From: a virus
Length of the DNA stretch: 7,894 nt
Direction: 5' to 3' (one strand)
Virus record (IMG/VR): IMGVR_UViG_3300011013_000867
Span: 1 to 7,894 of that record
Of this stretch, positions 1-7,894 are shown piece after piece. Both the position numbers and the translations under genes were made by a program. How positions within the stretch are numbered: the stretch's first letter is position 1; each line of letters begins with the position of its first letter. A model generated the notes under the pieces. The model made no database searches, was not told the DNA's origin, and saw nothing but the letters and a program-made list of their open reading frames with translations.

Positions 1-170
1 ATTAGAATTAGATGAATTAGAATTAGAACTGTTATCAGAAGTAGATGAATTAGAATTAGATGAATTAGAATTAGAACTGTTATCAGAAGTAGATGAATTA
101 GAATTAGATGAATTAGAATTAGATGAGCTTGATGAATTAGAATTAGATGAATTAGAATTAGATGTATCAT
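1..170. repeat. In-frame tandem repeat: 48-nt unit x2 (1-48, 49-96) followed by degenerate 15-nt sub-repeats; encodes SNSNSSNSNSSTSDNS-type linker
   Basis: The unit attagaattagatgaattagaattagaactgttatcagaagtagatga occurs twice without mismatch. The attagaattagatga motif continues to about base 165. Confidence 0.9.
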
Positions 171-2027: not shown

Positions 2028-3014
2028 TTAAACAATATAATAATTATTAAAATCTTTAGAAAAAAACAATTTATTATTATGATATATCTTCAAAACATTG
2101 TTTTTAAAAACAATAGTATGATTTAAATCAGAATTATAAAGAACAAACTCACCCTTTTTAAAGTTCTTTTCTTTAACATCATAAAAAACAGTATAATCAA
2201 ACCAATCTGAATTTAAAAAAAATATTTTCTTATATATCCAAAAAGGTAAAACAGAAAAAGAAGTCGTAAATCTTCTAATCTTATATTTTAAATACCAAAC
2301 TTGCAAAGCATCTAATTTTTGATTTTTTTTTATATTTAAAAATGATTTTGTAGTATATTTTAAAATATAACCTACAGGATTTTTTAAAGCAACTTCAAAT
2401 TTTTTTTGTTTAGCAGGAAAATATTCATAAAACTTATTTTTAACTTCATCAACAAAATCATTATGTATCCAAAGAAGCATATGAATATGAGGAACTCCAT
2501 CAGATCGATGAGGCTCTGTAGCTCTAATATAAGCCCTCTTATAACCCAATTTCCTCATTTTCCTAAAAACATTTGTATAAATAAATCTCCATAACTGAAA
2601 ATTTAAAATATTATACAAATCTTTAATAGTAAAAACTTCATTATTATTTATCTTATCACGCAAAAAACCAAAACGTTCATTATTTGGAATATATCTATCG
2701 TAAAAATTTCTATTTTTTAAATTATTATACCTTTTAAAATTAGAACATAAAAAATCACGAAAAAAACCATCCAAAGTAACAGTTAAAAAAATAGGAACTA
2801 AACGAAAATTAGATGATATTAACTTAAAAGTATTAATTTTGTTTATAAGGGTATTATAATAACGCTCACTTAAATTAGCAGACATAGAAATATCTAAAAA
2901 AGTTTTTACTTCACCATTTGAATTTACAATATGTTTATTATTTAAAAAACTTCTTTGTTGCTCTAATTTTTTATTATAAAAAATTATATCAGACTCAGAA
3001 ATACCATACAACAT
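2028..3014 (-). CDS. 328-aa HUH-superfamily rolling-circle replication initiator (Rep)
   Basis: Three RCR motifs occur in canonical order: FLTVTL (residues 76-81), PHIHMLLW with HUH = H176-I-H178 (plus strand aagcatatgaatatg at 2475-2489), and GYILKYTTK with Y216 and Y220 (YxxKY). Confidence 0.9.
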   Translation of the reverse strand: MLYGISESDIIFYNKKLEQQRSFLNNKHIVNSNGEVKTFLDISMSANLSERYYNTLINKINTFKLISSNFRLVPIFLTVTLDGFFRDFLCSNFKRYNNLKNRNFYDRYIPNNERFGFLRDKINNNEVFTIKDLYNILNFQLWRFIYTNVFRKMRKLGYKRAYIRATEPHRSDGVPHIHMLLWIHNDFVDEVKNKFYEYFPAKQKKFEVALKNPVGYILKYTTKSFLNIKKNQKLDALQVWYLKYKIRRFTTSFSVLPFWIYKKIFFLNSDWFDYTVFYDVKEKNFKKGEFVLYNSDLNHTIVFKNNVLKIYHNNKLFFSKDFNNYYIV

Positions 3015-3104
3015 TTTTTATCTTTTTATAAATTTTTTATATATTTTATATTTTTTAATTTATTTTAATTTTATTAATTATTAATAATTTAAATATATTT
3101 TATC

Positions 3105-3132
3105 ATTACAACATTTTTTGTTAATTTGTCAA
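3105..3132 (-). promoter_or_regulatory. Sigma70-like promoter candidate for rep
   Basis: On the minus strand: TTGACA (3132-3127), a 16-nt spacer ending TGt, then TGTAAT (3110-3105). This is about 90 nt upstream of the rep ATG and abuts the GC hairpin. -10-like hexamers are common in AT-rich DNA, but TTGACA is rare here. Confidence 0.35.
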
Positions 3133-3133
3133 G

Positions 3134-3178
3134 GGACGCTGCGCGTCCGCTCGCAAGCTCGCTATCCGCGTAGCGTCC
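3134..3178. promoter_or_regulatory. GC-rich imperfect hairpin; candidate replication origin/nick-site or packaging structure
   Basis: ggacgctgcgcg (3134-3145) pairs with cgcgtagcgtcc (3167-3178), giving 12 bp with one G.T position and a 21-nt loop containing gctcgc twice. An alternative local hairpin is ggacgc (3134-3139) with gcgtcc (3143-3148). Region 3133-3178 is 33/46 G+C by hand count. It lies between the RHH gene and the rep promoter candidate. Confidence 0.55.
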
Positions 3179-3206: not shown

Positions 3207-3371
3207 TTAATTAAAAAGAGAAGAATTCTTAATAACATAATCTTTAATCAACATTCTAATAACTTTGCTTGCATCTAAATCTTTTGATTTGCATACACTC
3301 ATAAATATTTTTTTAGTATTTTTATCTATAAGCACAGATATTCTATCATTTTTAATATTTTTATGCTTCAT
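3207..3371 (-). CDS. 54-aa ribbon-helix-helix (CopG/Arc-like) DNA-binding protein
   Basis: Hand translation from ATG 3371 (GGAG 5 nt upstream) gives MKHKNIKNDRISVLIDKNTKKIFMSVCKSKDLDASKVIRMLIKDYVIKNSSLFN, with TAA at 3207-3209. RISVLI(strand)-KNTKKIFMSVCKSK(helix)-DLDAS-KVIRMLIKDYV(helix) aligns without gaps with CopG RLTITLSESVLENLEKMAREMGLSKSAMISVALENY (recalled from memory). Not in the supplied track. Confidence 0.6.
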   Translation of the reverse strand: MKHKNIKNDRISVLIDKNTKKIFMSVCKSKDLDASKVIRMLIKDYVIKNSSLFN

Positions 3372-3419: not shown

Positions 3420-4163
3420 CTATGAATTTTTTAATTTATTATTTTCTAAAAAAGAATAAAAAACATCAATATTTTTTAGTCTTCTATTATACATCTTATT
3501 CCAAAGATACAAAGCATCTTCACGATTGCAAAAATCATCATAATAATAACAATAAATAAAACCATTTCTAATCTCAAAAACAACATCATCTTTAAATCTT
3601 TCAGGATCTGAAAACTTAAAACCATTAAAATATTTAGTAATAAAATCTTTAAATTCTTTAAGAGAGATATTTTTAAAAAACTCTCTCAAATCTTCTTTAG
3701 TAGAGAGAGTATTTATTATATTTCTTTTATTAGTATATTCAATATTTAATAGTGTCTTGTTATCCGATGTCGGATTTTCCAACTTCGGAGTTGACAACGT
3801 AGGATTATCAACATTTTTATCAATATTTTCATTTTCTTTTAATTGCTCTTCGTATTTTTTTAAAGGTATTTCATAAACTTCATATTCAACTCTTAAAAAT
3901 CTACCTTTCTCATCTCTTATAGTATTTCTAACTAAATATCCAGAATTTTCAAGCTCTTTCAAACCAGAACGTAAAGAATCACGACCATCAGTAGAACGAT
4001 TAACTAAATCATTCAAACGAACTTGCCAATTAGAAGGACGAGAAAACAAATACAACAAAATTCCTTTAGCTTTCCAAGAAAGACCGCAATCACTTATAAA
4101 ACCATTATCAACGACAGTATAATTTCTTAACTTCTTTTGCTTAAACTGTAGTAAAGAACTCAT
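3420..4163 (-). CDS. 247-aa winged-helix DNA-binding protein of the DnaD/plasmid-phage replication-initiator-like (HTH_36-type) kind; C-terminal half unassigned
   Basis: AGGAG lies 6 nt upstream of ATG 4163. The N-terminus YTVVDNGFISDCGLSWKAKGILLYLFSRPSNWQVRLNDLVNRSTDGRDSLRSGLKELENSGYLVRNTIRDEKGRFLRVEYEVYEIP matches the pattern I know from that family (LS..AKG..LYL.S.P..W....DL.......I...LKELE..GYL......D..G.F....Y.VYE.P). It is followed by a DNP...ENP...LLNIEYTNK linker typical of those proteins. Confidence 0.75.
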   Translation of the reverse strand: MSSLLQFKQKKLRNYTVVDNGFISDCGLSWKAKGILLYLFSRPSNWQVRLNDLVNRSTDGRDSLRSGLKELENSGYLVRNTIRDEKGRFLRVEYEVYEIPLKKYEEQLKENENIDKNVDNPTLSTPKLENPTSDNKTLLNIEYTNKRNIINTLSTKEDLREFFKNISLKEFKDFITKYFNGFKFSDPERFKDDVVFEIRNGFIYCYYYDDFCNREDALYLWNKMYNRRLKNIDVFYSFLENNKLKNS

Positions 4164-4287: not shown

Positions 4288-4343
4288 GAGCAAAGATTTT
4301 TTTTTGCTTTTTTGACACGAAGCAAAAAAAATCTACTTTGCTC
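4288..4343. promoter_or_regulatory. Long imperfect AT-rich hairpin downstream of the secretin gene; candidate packaging signal and/or terminator
   Basis: gagcaaag (4288-4295) pairs with ctttgctc (4336-4343). The T9 run (4297-4305) pairs with the A8 run (4324-4331). gctt (4306-4309) pairs with aagc (4320-4323). This gives about 20 bp, a small bulge and a 10-nt loop ttttgacacg. On the minus strand it is followed by ATATTGTTTT. Confidence 0.45.
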
Positions 4344-4522: not shown

Positions 4523-5698
4523 TCAATGATTTTTAAAAGGATTATTTTTATTTATAAATTTTAAAAGAGGATTTGAAGTTTTCAAAACATTAACATTAAG
4601 ATACAAAATATAAGTAAATTTTAAATCTGAATGAGTAGATGAATTAAACAAATTTTTAATGATAGGAATATCAGAAAGCAACGGAATATATTTTCTATTA
4701 TCTTTTGCAAAAACATCAGTGTTTAATCCAGCAATGGCAATTTTTTGCCCAACAGGAATTATAAAAGAAGTATCTAAATCTATAGCATTTTTAACATAAT
4801 TATCATTTCTACTATCATAATAACTATCTTCAAAAAACATTTTAATCAAAACTTTATCACTTATCAGAACAGGCTTAACTCTAAAAATAAGACCCACAGT
4901 TTTCTCTTCATAAGTAGTCGTATTTGTAGGAATAGTCTTATCATAAGAAGTAATAATCTGATTAGGTATTCTATAAACCTTTGAATTAGTAAACCTAACA
5001 GATTGACCAGATAGACAAATAAAGTTAGGCTTTACAATAGAATTTATATAACCCTTACTTTCTAAAAAGTCAAGATAAACAGAAATATCATCACCCGAGT
5101 TTCTATAGTCAAATCCAATCTTTTTAAAAAAATCAAAAAATAAAGATGGATTAGAATATTCATTAATAGATTTAATAAGAATATTTAAATTAATATTATT
5201 ATTTTTTATATTATTAATGTTAACGCGATAAATAGAACTTATAAATTTTAATGTCTTTGGAAAATTTATTTGTTTAATTGTTTTATAAAAACGATTAAAA
5301 TCATCAGTTTTATCATACAAAACAATAAAATTATTTTTGTTTAAATAATGAACTTCTAAATTAAATTTACTAGCAATATTATTAAGTTTTTTTATATTCA
5401 AATTATTAATTTTTATAATTTTTGATTTTTTAGGAATTTTTTTAATGTAATAAAATCCAGCATTATAAGATAGATAATAATTATTAGGTATAAGAACTTG
5501 TTTAATCATATCAATATATTGTTTCTTTGAAATATCATCATGCACAGACATGAAAACATTAATATTCATATCTTTATCGTACAAAAAATTTATATTGTAT
5601 CTCTCTGAAACAAACAAAATAAAATCTTTAAATTTTAATTGTAGAACATTAGCACTAACAAAAGAAAAAGTTAAAAACAAAAACAATAAAAATCTCAT
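4523..5698 (-). CDS. 391-aa outer-membrane secretin (pIV-like)
   Basis: It has a signal peptide MRFLLFLFLTFSFVSA and an N-domain-like LKFKDFILFVSERYNINFLYD. The secretin C-domain pattern is present: YLDFLESKGYINSIVKPNFICLSGQSVRF...KTVGLIFRVKPVLISDKVLIKMFFEDS...DTSFIIPVGQKIAIAGL...YIPLLSDIPIIKNLF. GGAGG is upstream, and the ATGA overlaps the pI stop. Confidence 0.85.
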   Translation of the reverse strand: MRFLLFLFLTFSFVSANVLQLKFKDFILFVSERYNINFLYDKDMNINVFMSVHDDISKKQYIDMIKQVLIPNNYYLSYNAGFYYIKKIPKKSKIIKINNLNIKKLNNIASKFNLEVHYLNKNNFIVLYDKTDDFNRFYKTIKQINFPKTLKFISSIYRVNINNIKNNNINLNILIKSINEYSNPSLFFDFFKKIGFDYRNSGDDISVYLDFLESKGYINSIVKPNFICLSGQSVRFTNSKVYRIPNQIITSYDKTIPTNTTTYEEKTVGLIFRVKPVLISDKVLIKMFFEDSYYDSRNDNYVKNAIDLDTSFIIPVGQKIAIAGLNTDVFAKDNRKYIPLLSDIPIIKNLFNSSTHSDLKFTYILYLNVNVLKTSNPLLKFINKNNPFKNH

Positions 5699-7228: not shown

Positions 7229-7894
7229 TTAACTCCTAAATCTTAAAATTGTTTTAACAACTATAAGAATAGACAAAATACTTATTAAAATATTAATTAT
7301 TAATGCAATAATCGGAGCCATAGGAGAAATGTATGGACAAAAATCAATTGAGATCTCTTTACCGTTAAAAGGATTTCTAAATTTTGCACATACAGGAAGA
7401 TTATCATTTTTATGAATATCTAATTTAAAACCTCTTCTAAAAACATCTTTCGTTTTAGAAATCTCTCGAAATAAAGAATCAAAATCACTTTTAACATTAT
7501 CTTTAAATTTGTTAAAACCAGAAAACAAACTATCTTCTTTACCAGTCAAAGTATTTAAGCCACTTGTATCAATATTATAATTAACATCTTTACCAGCACC
7601 TTGACCAGCGTTACAATGTTTAAACTCATTATTACCAGAACTACCACCAGAGCTACCAGAACTACCACCAGAGCTACCAGAACTACCACCAGAGCTACCA
7701 GAACTACCACCAGAGCTACCAGAGCTACCACCAGAGCTACCAGAACTACCACCAGAGCTACCAGAACTACCACCAGAGCTAGTCAAAGGATCTGAAATAT
7801 TAGAATTAGATGAATTAGAATTAGAACTGTTATCAGAAGTAGATGAATTAGAATTAGATGAATTAGAATTAGAACTGTTATCAGAAGTAGATGA
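7229..7894 (-). CDS. pIII-like adsorption/minor coat protein, C-terminal part (Ser/Asn linker, (SSGGSSG)x7 linker, C-terminal domain with membrane anchor); 7799-7894 duplicates 1-96
   Basis: The reading frame stays open from the right edge to TAA at 7229-7231. The tracker's M at 7786 is a TTG inside ...SNSNISDPLTSSGG... The frame matches the 855-start ORF when 7799=1: codon first bases fall at 7786, 7789...7801=3, and 855 is also 0 mod 3. The C-terminus MAPIIALIINILISILSILIVVKTILRFRS is a hydrophobic anchor plus basic tail, as in Ff g3p. The joined product is 474 aa. Confidence 0.75.
   Translation of the reverse strand, partial: SSTSDNSSNSNSSNSNSSTSDNSSNSNSSNSNISDPLTSSGGSSGSSGGSSGSSGGSSGSSGGSSGSSGGSSGSSGGSSGSSGGSSGNNEFKHCNAGQGAGKDVNYNIDTSGLNTLTGKEDSLFSGFNKFKDNVKSDFDSLFREISKTKDVFRRGFKLDIHKNDNLPVCAKFRNPFNGKEISIDFCPYISPMAPIIALIINILISILSILIVVKTILRFRS
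7634..7780. repeat. Seven tandem 21-nt in-frame repeats encoding (SSGGSSG)x7
   Basis: The unit accagaactaccaccagagct starts at 7634, 7655, 7676, 7697, 7718, 7739 and 7760. Six copies are identical. The fifth has one substitution (a->g at 7724), which is synonymous on the coding strand (AGT->AGC). Confidence 0.95.
7799..7894. repeat. Terminal redundancy: exact copy of bases 1-96 (the same two 48-nt units)
   Basis: Direct comparison of the window ends. The identity starts at 'at' (7799-7800) after ...tctgaaat. Confidence 0.95.

What the first reader, a model, noticed from the sequence alone, without database searches (positions are those of the whole stretch)
3133..3178. Isolated 46-nt island of about 72% G+C forming a 12-bp hairpin just upstream of rep: candidate origin or nick site
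Region 3133-3178 is 33/46 G+C by hand count, in a genome where long stretches contain almost no G or C. It folds as ggacgctgcgcg/cgcgtagcgtcc with a 21-nt loop carrying a gctcgc direct repeat, and it has a competing local hairpin (ggacgc/gcgtcc). It is flanked on the rep side by a TTGACA/TGTAAT promoter candidate and about 110 nt of almost pure A/T with short direct repeats, which could serve as an unwinding region. HUH Reps nick within or next to stem-loops, and Ff phages place the (+) origin hairpins directly upstream of gene II. No T-run follows on the coding strand, so it is not a standard intrinsic terminator. Its sequence is unlike any origin I know.
Basis: partly seen in the sequence, partly recalled or inferred. 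Interest (0 to 1): 0.7.

Follow-up and report, generated by a model that had tools for sequence, protein, structure and literature searches.

The report
Replication-origin hairpin of a filamentous phage
The G+C-rich hairpin is real and is most likely the stem-loop half of this filamentous phage's rolling-circle replication origin, next to a highly conserved sequence where the replication protein probably cuts; it is a new example of an origin type already mapped in Xanthomonas phages.

Summary
Region 3133-3178 is 33/46 G+C, the richest 46-mer in a 24% G+C circular inovirus genome, and it folds into the 12-bp hairpin described.

Comparison with about 135 related Campylobacterota prophages and contigs shows what it is. 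The hairpin ends one base before an almost invariant core, C|TTGTCAAnTTAAYAAAA (window: C|TTGACAAATTAACAAAA, 3133-3116, - strand).
- The core occurs 88 times in 1.7 Mb, always on the rep-sense strand, and 82 times lies 35-118 nt upstream of rep.
- In 60 of 68 distinct loci a hairpin abuts it. The stems are unrelated in sequence.
- The hairpin tips are conserved: C-GNA-G DNA triloops or GAGCYTGCGA, and the window has the latter.

The same arrangement (GCGCAGC-tipped hairpin, CTTG, CTTGTCCATTACAAAA) sits inside the experimentally mapped gII-dependent origin of Xanthomonas phage phiLf. That phage's Rep belongs to the same Pfam family.

So the origin reading is supported. Attachment site, terminator and conserved-promoter readings are rejected. 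An added role as minus-strand origin or packaging signal is not excluded.

Verdict: a new member of a known kind, of moderate interest.

The parts
3134..3178 (-). Origin hairpin. Long fold: 5' arm 3178-3167 (GGACGCTACGCG), 3' arm 3145-3134 (CGCGCAGCGTCC), 21-nt interior.
   Evidence: DNA fold gives -12.5 to -13.3 kcal/mol on either strand. Its position is equivalent to the hairpin that abuts the conserved core in 60 of 68 distinct related loci.
3149..3162 (-). Hairpin tip motif GCGAGC-TT-GCGAGC. It contains GAGCTTGCGA and can self-pair through four G-C pairs plus tandem G.A.
   Evidence: The same tip, TGAGCYTGCGAA, occurs in about 11 related loci whose stems are unrelated. L035 has GCGAGC-CT-GCGAGC.
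3134..3148 (-). Alternative 6-bp mini-hairpin GGACGC-GCA-GCGTCC (tip GCGCAGC, of the GCGNAGC type) ending one base before CTTG.
   Evidence: A structure containing it lies within about 1 kcal/mol of the minimum even without any triloop bonus. It has the same tip and position as phiLf GGCCAGCGC-GCA-GCGCTGGCC. GCGNAGC stability is documented in PMC13037366.
3116..3133 (-). Conserved origin core C|TTGACAAATTAACAAAA. The predicted Rep nick is CTTG^A, between 3130 and 3129.
   Evidence: A position weight matrix (PWM) built without the window scores this site 27.5 bits; the next best site in the window scores -0.5. Thirteen positions are invariant in 68 distinct loci. There are 88 sites in 1.7 Mb, all on the rep-sense strand. 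The nick position is inferred by analogy with phiX174 (G4305/A4306) and with the putative phiLf G304.
3015..3115 (-). Almost pure A/T spacer between the core and the rep start codon, with periodic A/T tracts. It also holds the TGTAAT -10 candidate at 3105-3110.
   Evidence: Composition is 5% G+C at 3001-3100. Periods of 9-11 and 19 nt are present. The spacer is longer than in any relative: 118 nt from core to ATG against 35-73 nt. Its function is inferred only.
2028..3014 (-). rep. An HUH rolling-circle initiator with a two-tyrosine motif, the presumed enzyme acting on the origin.
   Evidence: Pfam REP_ORF2-G2P at 7e-9, with Phage_GPA below its cutoff. H176/H178 and Y216-x3-Y220 are invariant in 23 homologs. 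The N-terminus aligns from residue 2 with homologs, so the start codon is right.
3207..3371 (-). Upstream neighbour: a 54-aa ribbon-helix-helix protein, listed for context and not part of the origin.
   Evidence: Pfam RHH_9 at 7e-12. The hairpin begins 28 nt after its stop codon.

Best explanation
The island is the stem-loop component of the phage's plus-strand (double-strand) rolling-circle origin. The functional unit is [hairpin 3178-3134] + [C|TTGACAAATTAACAAAA 3133-3116] on the rep-sense strand, which is the packaged viral strand.

Proposed mechanism:
1. In the supercoiled replicative form the inverted repeat extrudes or breathes, and this exposes the adjoining core as single-stranded DNA.
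2. The two-tyrosine HUH Rep recognises the hairpin base plus the core and cuts after CTTG, between 3130 and 3129. It stays linked to the 5' end while the host polymerase extends the 3'-OH.
3. After one round the regenerated hairpin-plus-core on the displaced strand is cut and rejoined, and a circular single strand is released.

What is shown:
- The unit exists and is conserved as a unit.
- It is strand-specific.
- It is linked to this Rep family.
- It matches the segment of phiLf that is required for gII-dependent replication.

What is inferred:
- The exact nick position.
- Extrusion of the hairpin.
- Which of the two folds is used.
- Any role of the A/T-rich spacer as an unwinding or enhancer region.
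For: 1. The genome is a complete circular inovirus. It encodes Rep, a candidate ssDNA-binding protein (by size and position only; no family hit in Pfam or PHROGs), coat protein, a pIII-like protein, Zot and a secretin, all on one strand, and has a 96-nt terminal overlap.

2. Rep has HUH and Y-x3-Y motifs that are invariant across homologs.

3. The core C|TTGTCAAnTTAAYAAAA occurs 88 times at 20 bits or more in 1.7 Mb of 137 related loci, with nothing between 10 and 20 bits. All sites are on the rep-sense strand, and 82 lie 35-118 nt upstream of rep. The window site scores 27.5 bits with a leave-one-out matrix, against -0.5 for the next best site.

4. In 60 of 68 distinct loci a hairpin of at least 8 bp ends 0-3 nt before TTG; in 48 it ends exactly 1 nt before.
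   - Mean pairwise identity of the 3' arm is 0.33, against 0.87 for the core.
   - The basal 8-nt arm pairs perfectly in 41% of loci, against 4.6% at random positions.
   - Near the tip, 4 of 5 pairs show changes on both sides.

5. The hairpin tips are C-GNA-G triloops with all four N (about 36 of 68) or TGAGCYTGCGAA (about 11, including the window). The rep-sense strand folds better in 42 loci and worse in 5. This fits a structure used as single-stranded DNA on the viral strand; GCGNAGC mini-hairpins are described in PMC13037366.

6. In L068, L077 and L089 the hairpin and core travel together but are not in front of rep. The unit is therefore an autonomous cis element.

7. In phiLf-UK, nt 273-331 are required for gII-dependent replication and contain 'the CTTG recognition sequence' and a GNA-loop hairpin (bioRxiv 10.1101/2023.12.30.573655).
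   - The sequence there is GGCCAGCGC-GCA-GCGCTGGCC|CTTGGG|CTTGTCCATTACAAAA.
   - A gapped version of the core matches that genome once, at nt 307, with 0 matches in 2000 shuffles.
   - XacF1/Cf1c carries the same element.
   - phiLf gII is in the same Pfam family, PF23343, at 6e-31.

8. phiX174 is nicked at CTTG^A (annotated origin at 4306). The window reads CTTG^A.
Against: - No nick has been mapped here. In phiLf the nick (G304) is itself only 'putative', and the deletion data come from a preprint.
- The phiLf deletion that removes the hairpin also removes a CTTG, so the hairpin's own contribution is not separated from that of the core.
- phiX174-type Reps do not need a hairpin.
- The window's own hairpin is only about 2 sd better than shuffles. 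It has an A.C mismatch on the rep-sense strand, where the opposite strand has G.T.
- About 40% of Rep relatives show no core within +/-4 kb. Pf3 and RSS1, other filamentous phages tested, lack it, so the link between this Rep family and the core is not universal.
- L080 has lost the hairpin but keeps the core. That could mean the hairpin is dispensable, or that this prophage is defective, or that the assembly is wrong.
- GNA mini-hairpins are best documented at minus-strand priming sites. The hairpin may serve that function instead of, or as well as, the plus-strand origin.
Confidence: 0.72

Rival explanations
1. The hairpin is mainly a signal on the single-stranded viral DNA rather than part of the Rep nicking site. 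It would be the minus-strand origin, where a stable hairpin excludes SSB and recruits host primase or RNA polymerase to prime just 3' of it, and/or the packaging signal. It would merely sit next to the plus-strand origin because the intergenic region is tiny.
For: - GNA or GCGNAGC mini-hairpins occur at the primase start sites of G4, St-1 and alpha3 and in RSF1010 ssiA (PMC13037366).
- The tips are strand-specific and the rep-sense (packaged) strand folds better in 42 loci against 5.
- In many relatives the whole non-coding gap between the secretin gene and rep holds only this hairpin plus the core, yet a filamentous phage also needs a minus-strand origin and a packaging signal somewhere.
- The phiLf fragment 245-365 supports both replication and miniphage production.
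Against: - In phiLf the packaging signal was mapped to a different hairpin, SL4 (nt 332-357), not the GNA hairpin.
- The hairpin is locked in register with the core: it ends exactly 1 nt before it in 48 of 68 loci. That is expected for one recognition unit rather than two neighbouring elements.
- The window has another strong hairpin, 4288-4343 (z about -5), which could carry these functions.
- This rival is compatible with the best explanation, because one hairpin could do both jobs.
Confidence: 0.17
2. The element is a transcription signal for rep. TTGACA (3127-3132) and TGTAAT (3105-3110) form the rep promoter, and the hairpin is an operator (for example for the RHH protein encoded just upstream) or the terminator of the upstream operon.
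For: - In this window the hexamers are good: a perfect TTGACA, a 16-nt spacer, and TGtTGTAAT.
- An RHH regulator gene ends 28 nt before the hairpin.
- The + strand has a T-rich tail after the stem.
Against: - In relatives the core reads TTGTCA and has no conserved -10 partner. In Arcobacter-type loci it lies 35-37 nt from the ATG, so a -10 box would fall on the ribosome-binding site.
- In L068 and L077 the unit is followed by an ORF on the opposite strand.
- Thirteen invariant positions across Reps that share only 35-50% identity are far more than promoters show.
- Relatives without an RHH gene have the hairpin, for example L014, where the secretin gene directly precedes it.
- No U-run follows on the rep-sense strand.
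- Promoter-like hexamers are frequent by chance in this DNA.
- A promoter overlapping the origin in this one genome is still possible.
Confidence: 0.06
3. The island is an attachment (attP) core or a dif-like site for integration into a host chromosome.
For: Relatives are mostly integrated prophages. Many filamentous phages integrate at dif through Xer recombinases, sometimes using a folded single-stranded hairpin (PMC2731167).
Against: - In the integrated L014 prophage, phage genes lie on both sides of the hairpin plus core (zot, secretin, the unit, rep), so the phage does not open there.
- The window has no match to the epsilonproteobacterial difH consensus, even with 3 mismatches.
- In phiLf-UK the Xer site is annotated elsewhere, at 5393-5407.
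- The stems differ between phages of the same host genus.
- A 21-mer from the island is absent from viral contigs.
Confidence: 0.02

Closest known systems
Plus-strand origin of Xanthomonas filamentous phages phiLf / phiLf-UK / Cf1c (XacF1). Sources: Lin & Tseng 1996 as cited in, and the deletion analysis of, bioRxiv 10.1101/2023.12.30.573655.
   Same: - The Rep is of the same Pfam family, PF23343.
- A G+C-rich hairpin with a GCGNAGC-type tip is followed by CTTG and then the core. phiLf has CTTGTCCATTACAAAA, relatives such as L047 have CTTGTCCACTTAACAAAA, and the window has CTTGACAAATTAACAAAA.
- The element lies on the rep-sense strand.
- That phiLf segment is required for gII-dependent replication.
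   Different: - In phiLf the origin lies inside the gII coding sequence; here it is in the intergenic region upstream of rep.
- phiLf has an extra CTTGGG between the hairpin and the core, and a core two bases shorter.
- The window's long fold has a GAGCTTGCGA tip rather than a simple GNA triloop.
- The two Reps align only around the HUH and Tyr motifs (34% identity over 50 aa, E 7e-6).
- Host phylum and base composition differ.
phiX174 30-bp viral-strand origin (CAACTTG^ATATTAATAAC...), and the CTTG^ATA nick sites of pC194-type rolling-circle plasmids. The plasmid sites are from my own knowledge and were not checked here.
   Same: CTTG^A is followed by an A/T-rich stretch containing ATTAA. The initiator has two tyrosines spaced Y-x3-Y. 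The Phage_GPA profile gives a weak hit to Rep, E 2e-4, below the curated cutoff.
   Different: phiX174 has no flanking hairpin. Its 'key binding' sequence ACTATAGACCAC is absent here. Spacing between CTTG and ATTAA differs. Beyond CTTGA the similarity could be chance in A/T-rich DNA.
Ff (f1/M13/fd) intergenic region: packaging hairpin, minus-strand origin hairpins and plus-strand origin hairpins between gene IV and gene II. From established knowledge.
   Same: The genomic logic is the same. The cis-acting hairpin(s) lie in the gap between the secretin gene and the replication gene in relatives. An A/T-rich region lies downstream of the nick, like the Ff enhancer.
   Different: - The Rep belongs to a different Pfam family: the Phage_CRI profile that I recall covering Ff gene II gave no hit here (the Ff assignment is from my own knowledge and was not checked).
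- I recall no sequence similarity to the Ff origin; this was not tested here.
- There is one compact hairpin plus an 18-nt core instead of about 500 nt with five hairpins.
- In the window a two-gene module separates the secretin gene from the hairpin.
Primase-dependent minus-strand origins of G4/St-1/alpha3 and RSF1010 ssiA (PMC13037366).
   Same: A stable mini-hairpin of the GCGNAGC/GCGNNAGC class on the single-stranded template, with the start site in the flank 3' of the hairpin.
   Different: Those elements are independent of the phage Rep and have no CTTG core. Here the hairpin is locked to a core that matches a Rep-dependent origin.

Membership tests
phiLf/Cf1c-type plus-strand origin of PF23343 (superfamily I HUH) inovirus Reps | A cognate Rep of the PF23343 / HUH + two-tyrosine type is encoded by the same replicon. 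| tested here: met
   Window Rep hits PF23343 at 7e-9, above the cutoff. H176/H178 and Y216/Y220 are invariant. phiLf gII hits PF23343 at 6e-31.
phiLf/Cf1c-type plus-strand origin of PF23343 (superfamily I HUH) inovirus Reps | A core sequence CTTGTC(C/A)A-TTA(A)-CAAAA on the rep-sense strand. | tested here: met
   The window has CTTGACAAATTAACAAAA at 3133-3116 (- strand), with one change (T to A after CTTG). The leave-one-out PWM score is 27.5 bits against -0.5 for the next best site. phiLf-UK has a unique match at nt 307, inside the mapped origin, with 0 matches in 2000 shuffles.
phiLf/Cf1c-type plus-strand origin of PF23343 (superfamily I HUH) inovirus Reps | A hairpin with a GNA-type tip immediately 5' of CTTG. 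| tested here: met
   The window hairpin ends 1 nt before TTG. The alternative fold GGACGC-GCA-GCGTCC has the GCGCAGC tip, as in phiLf. The lowest-energy long fold has a GAGCTTGCGA tip instead.
phiLf/Cf1c-type plus-strand origin of PF23343 (superfamily I HUH) inovirus Reps | The element supports Rep-dependent replication in trans, and the nick is mapped. | not testable with these tools
   This needs a two-plasmid origin assay and nick mapping. Even for phiLf the nick site is described only as 'putative'.
phiX174-type 30-bp origin | A recognition sequence CAACTTG^A, an A/T spacer, and the key binding sequence ACTATAGACCAC. | tested here: not met
   Only CTTG^A and an ATTAA-containing A/T stretch are shared. 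The key binding sequence is absent and a hairpin is present.
Intrinsic (rho-independent) terminator | A G+C-rich hairpin followed directly by a U-run on the transcribed strand. | tested here: not met
   On the rep-sense strand the hairpin is followed by CTTGACAAATT. Relatives have the invariant CTTGTCAA there. Only the opposite strand, which has no upstream gene, gives a terminator-like call.
attP / dif-like integration site | The sequence matches host dif (difH in Campylobacterota), or the prophage is opened at this site. | tested here: not met
   There is no difH-like site within 3 mismatches. The integrated L014 prophage is continuous across the unit. A search of the island against host genomes was not possible.
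Sigma-70 type promoter of rep | -35 and -10 hexamers at correct spacing, conserved in relatives and placed upstream of the leader and ribosome-binding site. | tested here: inconclusive
   The window has TTGACA, 16 nt, TGtTGTAAT. Relatives have no conserved -10 and sometimes only 35 nt to the ATG. Such hexamer pairs are common by chance here. A lineage-specific overlapping promoter is not excluded.
Single-strand initiation (minus-strand) origin of the G4/ssiA type | A stable mini-hairpin on the viral strand with a priming start in its 3' flank. | tested here: inconclusive
   A mini-hairpin-type tip is present and the structure is strand-biased. Priming cannot be tested with these tools.
Known structured RNA (Rfam) | A match to a covariance model at its gathering score. 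| tested here: not met
   The only overlapping hit is BTnc231 at 21.8 bits against a gathering score of 80.4, E 0.48. No tRNA or tmRNA was found.

The most novel reading that the evidence does not exclude
The hairpin plus 18-nt core may be a minimal all-in-one cis element. The same GNA-tipped hairpin would serve as Rep recognition and termination structure, as minus-strand priming site and perhaps as packaging signal. The two mutually exclusive folds in this genome (a long stem with a GAGCTTGCGA tip, or a GCGCAGC mini-hairpin abutting CTTG) would switch between these roles.

In addition, the core is more conserved than the Rep itself and is shared between Campylobacterota and Xanthomonas phages. 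It would then define a broad, previously unrecognised origin class from which nick sites in hundreds of uncultivated inoviruses could be predicted.
Probability: 0.2. Interest if true: 0.55.

Novelty: new member of a known kind. Interest (0 to 1): 0.4.

Why it matters
Origins of filamentous phages outside the Ff and CTX groups are almost unmapped, and no phage of this Campylobacterota clade is in the phage sequence collection searched here.

The comparison gives a precise, testable origin: an 18-nt core, a predicted nick at CTTG^A, and a strand-specific GNA-tipped hairpin. It applies to this genome and to about 80 related prophages of Arcobacter, Sulfurimonas, Sulfurovum and Campylobacter concisus, and it ties them to the one experimentally delimited origin of this Rep family, phiLf.

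This would help in three ways: delimiting prophages, designing phagemid-type vectors for Campylobacterota, and asking how two-tyrosine HUH Reps read a hairpin-plus-flank substrate. It does not overturn anything: a replication origin next to rep in an inovirus is what a specialist would expect.

Tried and rejected
- **Nucleotide similarity.** megablast of the whole window against the phage and plasmid collections found nothing.
- **Close-relative protein scan.** A scan of viral contigs with Rep alone found no relative, and a 21-mer of the island was absent there. tblastn of Rep against GenBank phages gave only one marginal Vibrio hit.
- **Known RNA families.** Rfam (E up to 10) and tRNA scans found nothing meaningful at the island.
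- **difH / attachment site.** No match, and synteny argues against it.
- **Terminator.** Rejected because there is no U-run on the sense strand.
- **Conserved -35 box.** Rejected from spacing and context in relatives.
- **RNAalifold on a MAFFT alignment of 12 elements.** It recovered only the 5 pairs near the tip, because indels misalign the outer stems. I relied on per-sequence folds and an alignment-free arm-pairing statistic instead.
- **Wider motif scan.** Scanning viral contigs with CTTGTCNNNTTAAYAAAA gave 120 hits, mostly chance matches inside unrelated phages. Only the 15 with a Rep homolog on the same strand were kept as origin candidates, and 11 of them have an abutting hairpin.
- **Other filamentous phages tested.** Pf3 and RSS1 lack the core, so the origin type is not universal among filamentous phages.
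- **Solved structures.** A PDB sequence search with the Rep profile gave only marginal hits to small HUH Rep domains. No structure prediction was run.
Full report
**1. The observation**

The window is A/T-rich (24% G+C). The 46-mer starting at 3133 has 33 G+C, which is the maximum of all 46-nt windows (mean 0.24, sd 0.09). The only other G+C-rich stretch is a coding Gly/Ser repeat at 7632-7795.

The stem is 3134-3145 / 3167-3178 (12 bp). It has a G.T pair on the + strand, which is an A.C mismatch on the - strand. The 21-nt loop carries gctcgc-aa-gctcgc, and the competing local hairpin 3134-3148 is also present. Against shuffles of the same G+C-rich segment the fold is only about 2 sd better. 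The hairpin alone is therefore not decisive; the composition and the comparative data are.

**2. Context**

All genes are on the - strand:
- rep, 3014-2028. It hits PF23343 REP_ORF2-G2P and gives a weak Phage_GPA hit. It has the HUH motif PHIHM and the tyrosine motif YILKY.
- A 117-aa ORF at the position of an ssDNA-binding protein (no family hit), a 59-aa major coat protein, a pIII-like protein, Zot (6798-5695) and a secretin (5698-4523).
- A 247-aa protein with a DnaD-like / replication-initiator N-terminal domain (4163-3420).
- A 54-aa ribbon-helix-helix protein (3371-3207).

The window has a 96-nt terminal overlap and an ORF crossing the junction, so it is a complete circular inovirus of about 7.8 kb. 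The same Rep occurs on two independent assemblies, and one of them carries the identical island. The Rep start codon is confirmed by alignment from residue 2 with homologs, which are longer only at the C-terminus. H176, H178, Y216, K219, Y220 and K223 are invariant in 23 homologs. Rep is thus a two-tyrosine HUH initiator.

**3. Relatives**

Rep homologs at 35-50% identity come from prophages and contigs of Arcobacteraceae, Sulfurimonas, Sulfuricurvum, Sulfurovum, Sulfurospirillum and Campylobacter concisus. No nucleotide-level relative exists in the phage or plasmid collections.

**4. The key finding**

Upstream of rep, many relatives show a sequence that the window shares: C|TTGTCAAnTTAAYAAAA, preceded directly by a hairpin.

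*The core*
- A regular expression finds it in 82 of 137 loci, 35-118 nt upstream of rep on the same strand, and only twice elsewhere in 853 kb.
- A position weight matrix (PWM) gives 88 sites of 20 bits or more in 1.7 Mb of both strands, and none between 10 and 20 bits.
- Thirteen positions are invariant in 68 distinct sequences.
- A matrix built without the window scores the window site (3135-3112, - strand) 27.5 bits. The next best position scores -0.5.

*The hairpin*
- In 60 of 68 distinct loci the lowest-energy DNA fold has a hairpin of at least 8 bp ending 0-3 nt before TTG. In 48 it ends exactly one base before, at the invariant C.
- Stems range from 29% to 82% G+C and are unrelated in sequence. 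Mean pairwise identity is 0.33 for the 3' arm against 0.87 for the core, and there are 47 different basal arms.
- Without using any fold prediction, the basal 8-nt arm finds a perfect partner in 41% of loci, against 4.6% at random positions.
- On a MAFFT alignment, 4 of the 5 tip-proximal pairs show changes on both sides.

*The tips*
- The tips are conserved. About 36 of 68 have C-GNA-G triloops with N = A, G, C or T, and about 11 have TGAGCYTGCGAA. The window has GCGAGC-TT-GCGAGC, which contains GAGCTTGCGA.
- GCGNAGC is the 'extraordinarily stable' DNA mini-hairpin (PMC13037366).
- The rep-sense strand folds better in 42 loci and worse in 5. This points to a structure used on the viral single strand.

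*Independence from rep*
- In L068, L077 and L089 the hairpin and core stay together but are not in front of rep. In L068 and L077 they are followed by an ORF on the opposite strand. The unit is therefore an autonomous cis element.
- Among 120 matches to a looser pattern in viral contigs, 15 have a Rep homolog, always on the same strand. Of those 15, 11 have an abutting hairpin. Most other matches are chance hits in unrelated phages.

**5. Link to an experimentally studied origin**

A preprint on Xanthomonas phages (bioRxiv 10.1101/2023.12.30.573655) reports that phiLf-UK nt 273-331 (stem-loops SL2 and SL3) are required for gII-dependent replication. It states that this segment contains the superfamily I Rep 'recognition sequence CTTG' with a putative nick at G304, and a GNA-loop hairpin.

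The sequence there is GGCCAGCGC-GCA-GCGCTGGCC|CTTGGG|CTTGTCCATTACAAAACAAG. For comparison, L047 reads ...GGCGGCC|CTTGTCCACTTAACAAAAG and the window reads ...GCGTCC|CTTGACAAATTAACAAAAA.

- A gapped version of the core matches the 6062-nt phiLf-UK genome once, at nt 307 on the + strand, with 0 matches in 2000 shuffles.
- XacF1/Cf1c has the same element at nt 346. Pf3 and RSS1 have none.
- phiLf gII belongs to PF23343 and aligns with the window Rep around the HUH and Tyr motifs.
- phiX174 is cut at CTTG^A (annotated origin at 4306).

**6. Interpretation**

The island is the hairpin half of the plus-strand origin.

- *Shown:* the unit is conserved, strand-specific and linked to this Rep family, and it matches a functional origin segment.
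- *Inferred:* the nick position, hairpin extrusion, which fold is used, and any unwinding or enhancer role of the A/T spacer 3015-3115. That spacer is uniquely long here, 118 nt against 35-73 nt in relatives, and carries periodic A/T tracts.

The window's island can also fold as GGACGC-GCA-GCGTCC abutting CTTG. A structure containing that hairpin lies within about 1 kcal/mol of the minimum without any triloop bonus. That is the phiLf-like form.

**7. Rivals**

- *Minus-strand origin or packaging signal.* This is not excluded and is compatible with the main reading, since mini-hairpins mark primase start sites in G4-type phages. However, the phiLf packaging signal maps to another hairpin, the register with the core is fixed, and the window has a further strong hairpin at 4288-4343.
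- *Promoter or operator.* The hexamers are good in this genome only. In Arcobacter-type relatives the core lies 35-37 nt from the ATG, on top of the ribosome-binding site. Promoter-like pairs are frequent by chance.
- *Terminator.* There is no U-run on the sense strand.
- *Attachment site.* There is no difH-like sequence. The integrated L014 prophage runs zot, secretin, hairpin plus core, rep without interruption. The phiLf Xer site is annotated elsewhere.
- *Structured RNA.* There is no Rfam or tRNA hit.

**8. Verdict**

The origin interpretation is supported, with the nick site and the 'promoter' reassigned. The element is a new member of a known kind (the phiLf-type superfamily I origin) in an uncharacterised clade of Campylobacterota inoviruses. 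Interest is moderate. The comparison yields an exact, testable origin and nick prediction for about 80 phages, but an origin next to rep is what would be expected.

Noticed in passing
window 4288-4343: A second strong hairpin: about 20 bp, A/T-rich, z -4.5 and -5.3 on the two strands. It lies in the 359-nt gap between the secretin stop codon (4523) and the 247-aa gene, and on the - strand it is followed by ATATTGTTTT. It could be the terminator of the structural operon, a packaging signal or a minus-strand origin.
   Followed up: partly
window 3420-4163 (-) and 3207-3371 (-): The 247-aa protein matches phage 'replication initiation protein' and DnaD-like helicase-loader families (PHROG hits down to 1e-25). 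Together with a 54-aa RHH protein it forms a two-gene module between the secretin gene and the origin hairpin. In relatives such as L014 the secretin gene directly precedes the hairpin. A second replication-type gene in a rolling-circle inovirus is unusual.
   Followed up: partly
L080 3880-3966 vs L014 3880-4000: L080 is an L014-like Halarcobacter prophage. It lacks exactly the 42 nt that form the hairpin but keeps the core TTGCC|TTGTCAAATTAAC. This could be a natural deletion in a defective prophage or an assembly collapse at the inverted repeat.
   Followed up: no
L091 1-140: This metagenome contig starts exactly at TTGTCAAC, the first base after the invariant C. It carries a 68-nt tandem duplication that begins at the core. 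This could be an assembly artefact, or a trace of re-initiation or termination at the origin.
   Followed up: no
window 1-96 and 7799-7894; ORF across the junction: A 96-nt exact terminal overlap shows a circular contig. A roughly 500-aa pIII-like ORF spans the junction and contains long SNSNSS and GGSSGS repeats. The latter form the only other G+C-rich stretch of the genome.
   Followed up: partly
L039-L057 and related C. concisus loci, about 60-260 nt upstream of rep: Campylobacter concisus prophages have three successive hairpins before the core: GTAGGGGATTTCCCCTAC, TTTTGGC-GTA-GCCAAAA, and the origin hairpin with a GAA triloop. This is a multi-hairpin intergenic region reminiscent of Ff phages.
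   Followed up: no
L004-L012, L062-L068 (Sulfuricurvum-type loci): In this subgroup rep follows the preceding gene without a gap and no core lies within 300 nt. In L068 the hairpin plus core lies about 4.1 kb downstream of the rep start. Gene order around the origin therefore differs within the clade.
   Followed up: partly
window 3013-3103: The A/T-only spacer between the core and rep shows imperfect periodicities of 9-11 and 19 nt (phased A/T tracts). This suggests intrinsically bent DNA. No relative has a spacer this long.
   Followed up: no
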